DNA from: Escherichia coli
GTDB taxonomy: Bacteria; Pseudomonadota; Gammaproteobacteria; Enterobacterales; Enterobacteriaceae
Assembly (NCBI RefSeq): GCF_011045215.1
Contig: NZ_CP049202.1
Reading direction: 5' to 3' (one strand)
DNA length: 64,000 nucleotides
Every line of letters starts with the position of its first letter. The stretch's first letter is position 1. The position numbers were made by a program, and so were the translations under genes. Below, in pieces: positions 6,900-6,992 of the stretch. The notes under the pieces are model-generated. The model saw only the letters and a program-made list of their open reading frames with translations, made no database searches and had not been told where the DNA came from.

Positions 6900-6992
6900 A
6901 GTCACAAAAATATCAAGTCTGGAGAGACACAATACAAGTATTGTGTCTCTCCGAAAAAAATAAAACAGGGTTCTGTTTTATTTAATGGCTAA
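6900..6992 (-). terminator. Intergenic stem-loops between fimbrial major-subunit gene and usher (candidate partial terminator/attenuator)
   Basis: On the minus strand: AAAACAG/CTGTTTT stem followed by a T-run, then a perfect 15-bp inverted repeat GGAGAGACACAATAC/GTATTGTGTCTCTCC. Confidence 0.4.

What the first reader, a model, noticed from the sequence alone, without database searches (positions are those of the whole stretch)
6900..6992. Stem-loops in the spacer between fimbrial major-subunit and usher genes
On the coding (minus) strand the subunit stop is followed by a short hairpin with a T-run and then a perfect 15-bp inverted repeat. Partial terminators at this position are a known way for chaperone-usher operons to make far more pilin than usher.
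Basis: partly seen in the sequence, partly recalled or inferred. Interest (0 to 1): 0.35.

Follow-up and report, generated by a model that had tools for sequence, protein, structure and literature searches.

The report
Stem-loops after a pilin gene
Two RNA hairpins sit just after the main pilus-subunit gene of a plasmid-borne Pef-type fimbrial operon, most likely so the cell makes more subunit message than assembly-machinery message; this is a familiar design and an ordinary finding.

Summary
On the minus strand the PefA-like pilin gene (7523..6993) is followed by a weak A/U-rich hairpin (6983..6958, about -9 kcal/mol) that runs into a T7 run (6960..6954). Next comes a perfect 15-nt inverted repeat (6952..6921, about -21 to -23 kcal/mol), and the PefC-like usher starts at 6796. 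Both hairpins beat all 200 shuffles, and hairpin 2 is among the six most stable local folds in the 64 kb. Neither is a canonical intrinsic terminator: hairpin 1 has the U-run but only 2 G-C pairs, and hairpin 2 has the stem but no adjacent U-run. Eleven other Pef/AfrB/F18-type operons (Salmonella, Escherichia, Yersinia, Citrobacter, Serratia, Aeromonas, Photobacterium) all have a strong hairpin 4-41 nt after the pilin stop. Their sequences are unrelated, and only about five have a U-tract. This points to selection on RNA structure. The likely function is to raise pilin mRNA over usher/chaperone mRNA by partial termination, 3' end protection, or both, as published for fimbrial operons (pap, cfa). 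No transcript data were available. I rate it a new member of a known kind, of low interest.

The parts
6993..7523 (-). Major pilin gene (PefA-like, 176 aa), the cistron upstream of the hairpins
   Evidence: It is an ORF. It matches NCBIfam NF011761 'fimbrial protein PefA' (equivalog) at 242.7 bits, above the 227 cutoff. It is 72% identical to Salmonella PefA.
6958..6983 (-). Hairpin 1: 11-bp A/U-rich stem with only 2 G-C pairs and an AACC loop, about -9 kcal/mol
   Evidence: Supported (z = -7.2). The loop region CAGAACC is conserved with the Salmonella pefA-pefC spacer, where a weaker 5-bp hairpin sits at the same place.
6954..6960 (-). T7 run (a U-tract in the RNA). It overlaps the 3' arm of hairpin 1 and ends 2 nt before hairpin 2
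   Evidence: Read directly from the sequence. It varies among near-identical plasmids: T7, T8 or TTCTTTTT.
6921..6952 (-). Hairpin 2: perfect 15-nt inverted repeat that folds as 14 bp with a CUUG loop, -21 to -23 kcal/mol, with no adjacent U-tract
   Evidence: Supported (I5; z = -7.4; second most stable 45-nt fold in the operon segment). It is unique in the window. Close relatives differ only at the apical and basal pairs.
6906..6920 (-). Predicted single-stranded A/U-rich segment (AGACUUGAUAUUUUU) after hairpin 2. It is a candidate endonuclease (RNase E-type) entry site or a displaced, weak U-tract
   Evidence: It is unpaired in the predicted folds. UAUUUUU is conserved at the same place in Salmonella. 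The proposed function is inference only.
6841..6881 (-). C-rich, G-poor tract (13 C, 1 G in 41 nt) in the untranslated spacer, a possible Rho-utilisation site
   Evidence: Read from the sequence. A similar C-rich tract occurs in Salmonella. The sense strand after the hairpin is pyrimidine-rich in all lineages. This is inference.
4388..6796 (-). Usher gene (PefC-like, 802 aa, GTG start preceded by GAGGAGG), the cistron downstream of the hairpins
   Evidence: It matches Pfam Usher at 2.7e-158 and PapC_N. It is 85% identical to Salmonella PefC. The start codon is ATG at the same position in relatives.
3703..4395 (-). Chaperone gene (PefD-like), overlapping the end of the usher gene
   Evidence: It matches Pfam PapD_N and PapD_C. 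It is 82% identical to PefD, aligned over 4395..3706.
3540..3570 (-). Strong hairpin without a U-tract, 133 nt after the chaperone stop. It is probably the 3' end structure of the operon transcript
   Evidence: Supported (-22.7 kcal/mol; most stable fold in the operon segment; sequence).

Best explanation
The two stem-loops form an intercistronic RNA element of a Pef-type (PefA-PefC-PefD) chaperone-usher operon on an Escherichia IncF-type plasmid. The element most likely raises the amount of pilin mRNA relative to usher and chaperone mRNA. Proposed mechanism (inferred, not shown): transcripts that start upstream of the pilin gene meet hairpin 1 and its U7 run, which act as a weak intrinsic terminator and release a fraction of polymerases. 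Transcripts that read through carry hairpin 2. After endonucleolytic cleavage in the A/U-rich spacer downstream, or after Rho-dependent termination, this 14-bp stem stops 3'-to-5' exonucleases. A stable monocistronic pilin mRNA is left while the usher-chaperone part decays. What is shown here: the structures exist, they are far more stable than chance, and a strong hairpin at this position is conserved across the whole usher family although its sequence is not.
For: Structure: the whole region folds at -39.9 kcal/mol with z = -8.1, and each hairpin has z of about -7 with 0 of 200 shuffles as good. Hairpin 2 ranks about sixth in 64 kb on both strands and second in the operon segment. Context: the order is pilin, 196-nt spacer, usher, overlapping chaperone, all on one strand. 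The scan found no sigma-70-like promoter on the minus strand between the hairpins and the usher start, so usher expression appears to need read-through. Conservation: all 12 operons with usher relatives of 44-85% identity have a -14.5 to -32 kcal/mol hairpin starting 4-41 nt after the pilin stop. They come from Salmonella pef, E. albertii, goat STEC, F18 fed, Yersinia, three Citrobacter loci, Serratia, Aeromonas and Photobacterium. The hairpin sequences are unrelated, and in 10 of 12 no more than 5 of 200 shuffles reach the observed stem. In 8 of 12 the hairpin is among the five most stable local folds of its locus. Salmonella pef has the same two-hairpin layout, with hairpin 2 entirely replaced by a different sequence (GCGGCGCAC-CGCC-GUGCGCCGC). 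Two Citrobacter loci differ in the lower stem only by G-C/G-U and C-G/U-G changes that keep the pairs. Close relatives of the window mutate only the end pairs of hairpin 2. Literature: the stem-loop-after-subunit principle is in PMC3373541. Protective 3' structures and the papBA and cfaAB precedents are in PMC5927463. In Salmonella, pefC and orf5 mRNA levels rise together with pefA when the promoters upstream of pefB and pefA are de-repressed (PMC6844306), which fits read-through across the spacer.
Against: There are no transcript data for this operon or for Salmonella pef across the spacer, so termination, read-through and differential decay are all inferred. Neither hairpin passes the consensus intrinsic-terminator scan. 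Hairpin 1 is weak, and its U-run is interrupted by a C in four of the seven related plasmids, so it may do little. The Salmonella and goat-STEC hairpins are not clearly better than shuffles (19 and 10 of 200). A weak internal promoter (TTGATT-17-TATATC, read by eye) cannot be excluded. The operon lacks PefB, PefI and Orf6 homologues nearby and looks rearranged, so its expression is uncertain.
Confidence: 0.62

Rival explanations
1. The element is purely a decay barrier. RNA polymerase does not terminate in the spacer. The full-length transcript is cut by an endonuclease in the A/U-rich segment after hairpin 2, and exonucleases then trim back to hairpin 2. The pilin excess would come entirely from differential mRNA stability, as in malE-malF and cfaAB.
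For: Hairpin 2 has no adjacent U-tract. Seven of the 12 family members have a strong hairpin without a proper U-tract, so the conserved feature is the stem, not a terminator. A UAUUUUU segment 11-15 nt after hairpin 2 is conserved with Salmonella. Protective 3' stem-loops in operons are well documented (PMC5927463).
Against: Hairpin 1 with its U7 run does look like a weak terminator. About five lineages have canonical hairpin-plus-U-tract terminators at this position (L004, L006, L010, L011 and partly L007/L008). No cleavage data exist.
Confidence: 0.2
2. Attenuation is Rho-dependent. The 196-nt untranslated spacer exposes a C-rich, G-poor tract (6841-6881) on which Rho loads and terminates part of the transcripts before or inside the usher gene. 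Hairpin 2 is only the point to which the resulting 3' ends are trimmed.
For: The tract has 13 C and 1 G in 41 nt, and a comparable tract occurs in Salmonella. The sense strand after the hairpin is pyrimidine-rich in all lineages, at 0.55-0.78 against 0.46-0.49 locus-wide.
Against: Over the whole post-hairpin spacer the C/G ratio is only 1.1. The tract is shorter than typical rut regions, and some lineages have spacers of only 61-92 nt. Nothing was tested experimentally.
Confidence: 0.08
3. The perfect palindrome acts at the DNA level as a binding site for a dimeric regulator, for example an operator controlling an internal usher promoter.
For: A perfect 15-bp palindrome with a 2-bp centre is the geometry of many operators. 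A weak promoter-like TTGATT-17-TATATC lies downstream (read by eye).
Against: Related operons have hairpins of completely unrelated sequence at the same position, which fits RNA structure and not a conserved protein-DNA contact. No promoter passed the scan on the minus strand in the spacer. The motif occurs nowhere else in the window.
Confidence: 0.04
4. The hairpins have no function. They could be chance products of A/T-rich intergenic DNA or scars of past insertion or recombination.
For: The region was clearly replaced between Salmonella and Escherichia. The cluster is rearranged. There are no expression data.
Against: The z-scores are about -7 to -8. A strong hairpin is present at the same position in 12 of 12 lineages across several families of Gammaproteobacteria. 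The element is not a dispersed repeat.
Confidence: 0.06

Closest known systems
Salmonella enterica pefA-pefC intergenic region (orthologous Pef operon on the virulence plasmid)
   Same: The gene order is the same, with pilin 72%, usher 85% and chaperone 82% identical. The spacer is also long (227 nt). A small hairpin sharing the CAGAACC segment is followed by a U-rich stretch, then a strong hairpin, then UAUUUUU.
   Different: Hairpin 2 has an entirely different sequence: G+C-rich, 9 bp plus an outer AAAUG/CAUUU extension, against a 14-bp mixed stem here. Salmonella has pefB upstream and orf5, orf6 and pefI downstream, whereas the window has no PefB, PefI or Orf6 homologue and an Orf5-like gene upstream. 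My two full-text searches found no paper describing stem-loops in this Salmonella spacer. The one Pef regulation paper I opened does not mention hairpins or terminators.
Post-pilin terminator/stabiliser of the pap operon (papBA mRNA) in uropathogenic E. coli
   Same: A structure at the 3' end of the major pilin message gives a stable, abundant pilin mRNA relative to the other operon genes (PMC5927463).
   Different: The pap mechanism also needs RNase E cleavage between papB and papA and a 5' stem-loop. No papB-like gene is present here. The usher family and hairpin sequences are different.
cfaAB (CFA/I fimbriae) differential mRNA decay
   Same: It is a fimbrial operon in which segmental mRNA stability sets the relative gene expression. 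It is listed as a classical case in PMC5927463.
   Different: It belongs to a different chaperone-usher class and gene order (from my own knowledge, not tested here). The details of that stem-loop were not examined.
malE-malF intercistronic protective hairpin (REP) of E. coli
   Same: It is a stable intercistronic stem-loop without terminator function. It blocks 3'-to-5' exonucleases and stabilises the upstream cistron (PMC5927463). This is the best mechanistic analogue for hairpin 2.
   Different: REP is a dispersed repeat family. The hairpin here is unique to this locus.
F18 (fed) fimbrial operon, fedA-usher spacer
   Same: The usher is 57% identical. A perfect 12-nt inverted repeat with a 2-nt centre (UUAUCCGGUAGC-AA-GCUACCGGAUAA, -15.3 kcal/mol) lies 12 nt after the fedA stop, followed by CUUUCUUC and not a U-run.
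   Different: It has a single hairpin, a 92-nt spacer and an unrelated sequence.

Membership tests
Intrinsic (Rho-independent) terminator | Stable, G+C-rich stem-loop | tested here: inconclusive
   Hairpin 1 has 11 bp but only 2 G-C pairs, at about -9 kcal/mol, so it does not meet the feature. Hairpin 2 has 14 bp with 6 G-C pairs, at -21 to -23 kcal/mol, so it does.
Intrinsic (Rho-independent) terminator | U-tract immediately 3' of the stem | tested here: inconclusive
   Hairpin 1 meets it (UUUAUUUUUUU, T7 at 6960..6954). Hairpin 2 does not: its tail is AGACUUGAUAUUUUU, with the U5 starting 11 nt after the stem. The consensus scan lists neither hairpin.
Intrinsic (Rho-independent) terminator | Transcript 3' ends at the U-tract, in vivo or in vitro | not testable with these tools
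   No RNA data are available.
Intercistronic 3' protective stem-loop (differential operon mRNA decay; malE-malF, cfaAB, papA 3' end) | Stable stem-loop directly downstream of the cistron needed in excess, inside a co-directional operon | tested here: met
   The pilin stop is at 6993, the hairpins lie at 6983..6921, the usher starts at 6796, and no promoter was called in between on the minus strand.
Intercistronic 3' protective stem-loop (differential operon mRNA decay; malE-malF, cfaAB, papA 3' end) | Structure conserved in homologous operons | tested here: met
   All 12 lineages have a -14.5 to -32 kcal/mol hairpin 4-41 nt after the pilin stop, with unrelated sequences. In 8 of 12 it ranks among the top five folds of the locus.
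Intercistronic 3' protective stem-loop (differential operon mRNA decay; malE-malF, cfaAB, papA 3' end) | Upstream segment more abundant or longer-lived than the downstream segment | not testable with these tools
   This needs rifampicin-chase RNA-seq or a northern blot.
REP/BIME or other dispersed palindromic repeat | Many copies per replicon or genome | tested here: not met
   The arm sequence occurs only at 6921-6952 in the window, allowing up to 2 mismatches. The spacer has no other copy in the window. Among 5,426 complete E. coli genomes, only the two orthologous plasmids match.
Pef/AfrB-type chaperone-usher fimbrial operon | PefA-type major subunit, PefC/AfrB-type usher and PefD-type chaperone, in that order | tested here: met
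   The pilin scores 242.7 bits on the PefA equivalog, above the 227 cutoff. The usher matches Pfam Usher and is 85% identical to PefC. The chaperone is 82% identical to PefD. RefSeq annotates the relatives as PefC/AfrB family.
Pef/AfrB-type chaperone-usher fimbrial operon | Linked PapB/PapI-type regulators (pefB, pefI) as in Salmonella pef | tested here: not met
   tblastn of PefB, PefI and an E. albertii PapB-like protein against the whole window gave no hit at E <= 1e-3.
Any curated RNA family (Rfam 15) | Covariance-model match | tested here: not met
   No match with E <= 1 in 6000-9500 on either strand.

The most novel reading that the evidence does not exclude
The segment from the pilin stop to the base of hairpin 2 (about 75 nt: weak hairpin, U7, strong hairpin) may be released as a stable RNA derived from the 3' UTR, which would then act in trans, for example in cross-talk with other adhesin or motility genes. 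On this reading it is more than a passive 3' end. The evidence does not exclude this, but nothing specifically supports it beyond the two-hairpin-plus-U-run layout.
Probability: 0.05. Interest if true: 0.5.

Novelty: new member of a known kind. Interest (0 to 1): 0.17.

Why it matters
If confirmed, the element would explain how this plasmid-borne Pef-type operon sets its pilin-to-usher ratio. It would also add a family-wide observation: in Pef/AfrB/F18-type operons the conserved feature after the pilin gene is a stable stem, often without a U-tract. That points to message protection or non-canonical termination, and away from textbook intrinsic termination. This has practical use for expressing these fimbriae (F18 and Pef vaccine antigens) and for annotating operon sub-structure. 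It does not change the current understanding of fimbrial regulation.

Tried and rejected
- **Rfam:** a permissive scan of 6000-9500 found nothing.
- **Dispersed-repeat (REP-like) hypothesis:** rejected, because the sequence is unique in the window and in the E. coli collection.
- **Genome-contig scans:** the first, with the single usher protein, confirmed no relatives. The repeat with a five-usher alignment gave seven loci.
- **Literature:** a search for pefA + pefC + stem-loop found no paper. The main Pef regulation paper does not mention terminators or hairpins. The pefACDEF search found one unrelated paper. The F18 fedA/terminator search returned nothing relevant by title or abstract, and none of those papers was opened.
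- **Small ORFs in the spacer:** a 28-aa ORF (TTG start) and a 20-aa ORF (ATG start) have no support and were not pursued.
- **Plus-strand reading:** the hairpins fold equally well on that strand. However, hairpin 2 would be followed by GAAAAAAA, no plus-strand gene converges there, and the plus-strand promoter-like hit at 6817-6846 is one of many in A/T-rich DNA (21 found against 14.5 expected). An antisense RNA is therefore unlikely but not excluded.
- **Technical failures:** a brute-force hairpin scan timed out and was replaced by span-limited folding. Two of the six folds used wrong coordinates for L003 and L005 and are ignored; one search covers those loci.

Full report
**What is in the sequence.** All features below are on the minus strand.

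| Feature | Position | Evidence |
|---|---|---|
| Pilin ORF, 176 aa, stop TAA at 6995-6993 | 7523..6993 | |
| Usher ORF, 802 aa, GTG start preceded by GAGGAGG; relatives have ATG at the same position | 6796..4388 | |
| Chaperone gene, overlapping the usher end | about 4395..3703 | |

- The pilin meets the NCBIfam PefA equivalog (242.7 bits, cutoff 227). It is 72% identical to Salmonella PefA.
- The usher matches Pfam Usher at 2.7e-158 and is 85% identical to PefC. The chaperone is 82% identical to PefD.
- The 6.5-kb segment is 94-95.5% identical to seven IncF-type plasmids of E. coli and E. fergusonii from cattle and sheep. It lies next to a RepB-family replication gene.
The operon is a Pef/AfrB-type chaperone-usher operon on an Escherichia plasmid.

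**The observation.** The 196-nt spacer (6797-6992) begins with two stem-loops.

- **Hairpin 1** (6983..6958) is AAAUAAAACAG-AACC-CUGUUUUAUUU.
  - It has 11 pairs, of which only two are G-C, at about -9 kcal/mol.
  - Its 3' arm continues into a run of seven T (6960..6954).
- **Hairpin 2** (6952..6921) is a perfect 15-nt inverted repeat with 2 nt between the arms.
  - It folds as 14 pairs with a CUUG loop, at -21.1 to -22.6 kcal/mol.
- No shuffle in 200 folds as well as either hairpin, and both have z of about -7. The 121-nt region reaches -39.9 kcal/mol with z = -8.1.
- In a 40-nt sliding fold of both strands of the 64 kb, hairpin 2 is about the sixth most stable site.
- In the 6.5-kb operon segment it is second. 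Only a hairpin 133 nt after the chaperone stop is stronger.

**Whether it is a terminator.**

- The consensus scan lists neither hairpin.
- Hairpin 1 has the U-run but a weak A/U stem. Hairpin 2 has the stem, but its tail is AGACUUGAUAUUUUU, so the U5 starts 11 nt after the stem.
- The features that define a canonical intrinsic terminator are therefore split between two adjacent structures.
- The U-run itself is not well conserved among near-identical plasmids: T7, T8 or TTCTTTTT.

**Evidence from relatives.**

- I collected operons with usher relatives of 44-85% identity. They are Salmonella pef (L002), E. albertii (L003), a goat STEC plasmid (L004), F18 fed (L005), Aeromonas sobria, three Citrobacter loci, Photobacterium kishitanii, Yersinia similis and Serratia oryzae (L006-L012).
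- All have the order pilin, usher, chaperone.
- All 12, counting the window, have a strong hairpin (-14.5 to -32 kcal/mol) that begins 4-41 nt after the pilin stop. The hairpin sequences are unrelated.
- In 10 of the 12, at most 5 of 200 shuffles of the spacer give as strong a stem. In 8 of the 12 it is among the five most stable local folds of the whole locus.
- Only about five of these hairpins are followed by a proper U-tract. The rest, including Salmonella pef, F18 and the window's hairpin 2, are not.
- Salmonella pef shares the layout of the window: a small hairpin around a conserved CAGAACC, a U-rich stretch, a strong hairpin, then UAUUUUU. Its strong hairpin has a completely different sequence.
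- Two Citrobacter loci differ in the lower stem by G-C/G-U and C-G/U-G changes that keep the pairing.
- In close relatives of the window, the only changes in hairpin 2 hit the apical and the basal pair.
- This pattern indicates selection on RNA structure at this position. It does not fit selection on a DNA sequence motif.

**What it is not.**

- It matches no Rfam family.
- It is not a dispersed repeat. The arm is unique in the window, and among 5,426 complete E. coli genomes only the two orthologous plasmids match.
- The short ORFs in the spacer have no support.
- On the plus strand the hairpins fold equally well, but no U-run follows hairpin 2 and no gene converges there.

**Most likely mechanism.**

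- The scan found no promoter on the minus strand between the hairpins and the usher.
- In Salmonella, pefC and orf5 mRNA levels rise together with pefA when the promoters upstream of pefB and pefA are de-repressed (PMC6844306). Usher expression therefore most likely depends on read-through.
- I propose that hairpin 1 and its U-run terminate a fraction of transcripts weakly. Hairpin 2 then protects the 3' end of pilin mRNA once the downstream part has been cut or terminated.
- Either step gives more pilin than usher message.
- This design is published for fimbrial gene clusters in general (PMC3373541). It matches the classical papBA, cfaAB and malE-malF cases (PMC5927463).
- Which step dominates is not known. 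The family-wide lack of U-tracts makes the decay-barrier role at least as likely as intrinsic termination.
- A C-rich, G-poor tract at 6841-6881, together with general pyrimidine richness after the hairpin in all lineages, leaves room for a contribution from Rho.
- All steps beyond the presence and conservation of the structures are inferred.

**Novelty and verdict.**

- My full-text searches found no paper describing these stem-loops or the orthologous Salmonella ones.
- The kind of element is textbook, so this is a new member of a known kind and of low interest.
- The one mildly useful generalisation is that the conserved post-pilin feature in this usher clade is a stable stem and not a canonical terminator.

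Noticed in passing
window 3540-3570 (-): A strong 12-bp hairpin with a 7-nt loop (about -22.7 kcal/mol) and no U-tract lies 133 nt after the chaperone stop. It is the most stable local fold in the operon segment and is probably the 3' end structure of the operon transcript.
   Followed up: partly
window 8326-8925 (-), 12212-12952 (-), 8062-8651 vs 11635-12197: The Pef-like cluster is rearranged compared with Salmonella. An Orf5-like 199-aa gene (32% identical) lies upstream of the pilin gene. A second PefD-like chaperone (53% identical) sits at 12212-12952. The segment 8062-8651 is 81% identical to 11635-12197. No PefB, PefI or Orf6 homologue is found anywhere in the window.
   Followed up: partly
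window 9172-9500 vs 43521-43851: A segment of about 330 bp is repeated in inverted orientation at 97% identity, 34 kb away. Its nature was not examined.
   Followed up: no
window 48589-48621 and 35022-35052; also 23566-23605 and 32215-32254: Other hairpins are equally striking. There is a perfect 15-nt inverted repeat with a 3-nt loop at 48589-48621 and a perfect 14-nt one at 35022-35052. The two most stable 40-nt folds of the window (-24.8 and -25.1 kcal/mol) are at 23566-23605 and 32215-32254. Their contexts were not examined.
   Followed up: no
window 7586-7610 (-): The decamer CAACATCAAG is repeated in tandem 2.5 times in the leader, about 65-85 nt upstream of the pilin start codon. A promoter-like site (TTGTCA-17-CACAAT) lies at 7730..7702 on the same strand.
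   Followed up: no
window 13859-15454 (+): A 531-aa ORF has trimeric-autotransporter-adhesin (YadA/Ata-like) matches well below the family cutoffs. It is a second adhesin type next to the fimbrial cluster.
   Followed up: no
window 6954-6960 and 6796; L001, L013, L014: Near-identical plasmids differ in the U-run after hairpin 1 (T7, T8 or TTCTTTTT) and in the usher start codon (GTG here and in Ceylon31, ATG in E. fergusonii RHB32 and E. coli C5). These differences could tune the pilin:usher ratio.
   Followed up: partly
window 6841-6881 (-): The untranslated spacer contains a C-rich, G-poor tract (13 C, 1 G in 41 nt). Salmonella has a comparable tract, and the sense strand after the hairpin is pyrimidine-rich in all 11 lineages with enough spacer to measure. 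It is a possible Rho loading site.
   Followed up: partly
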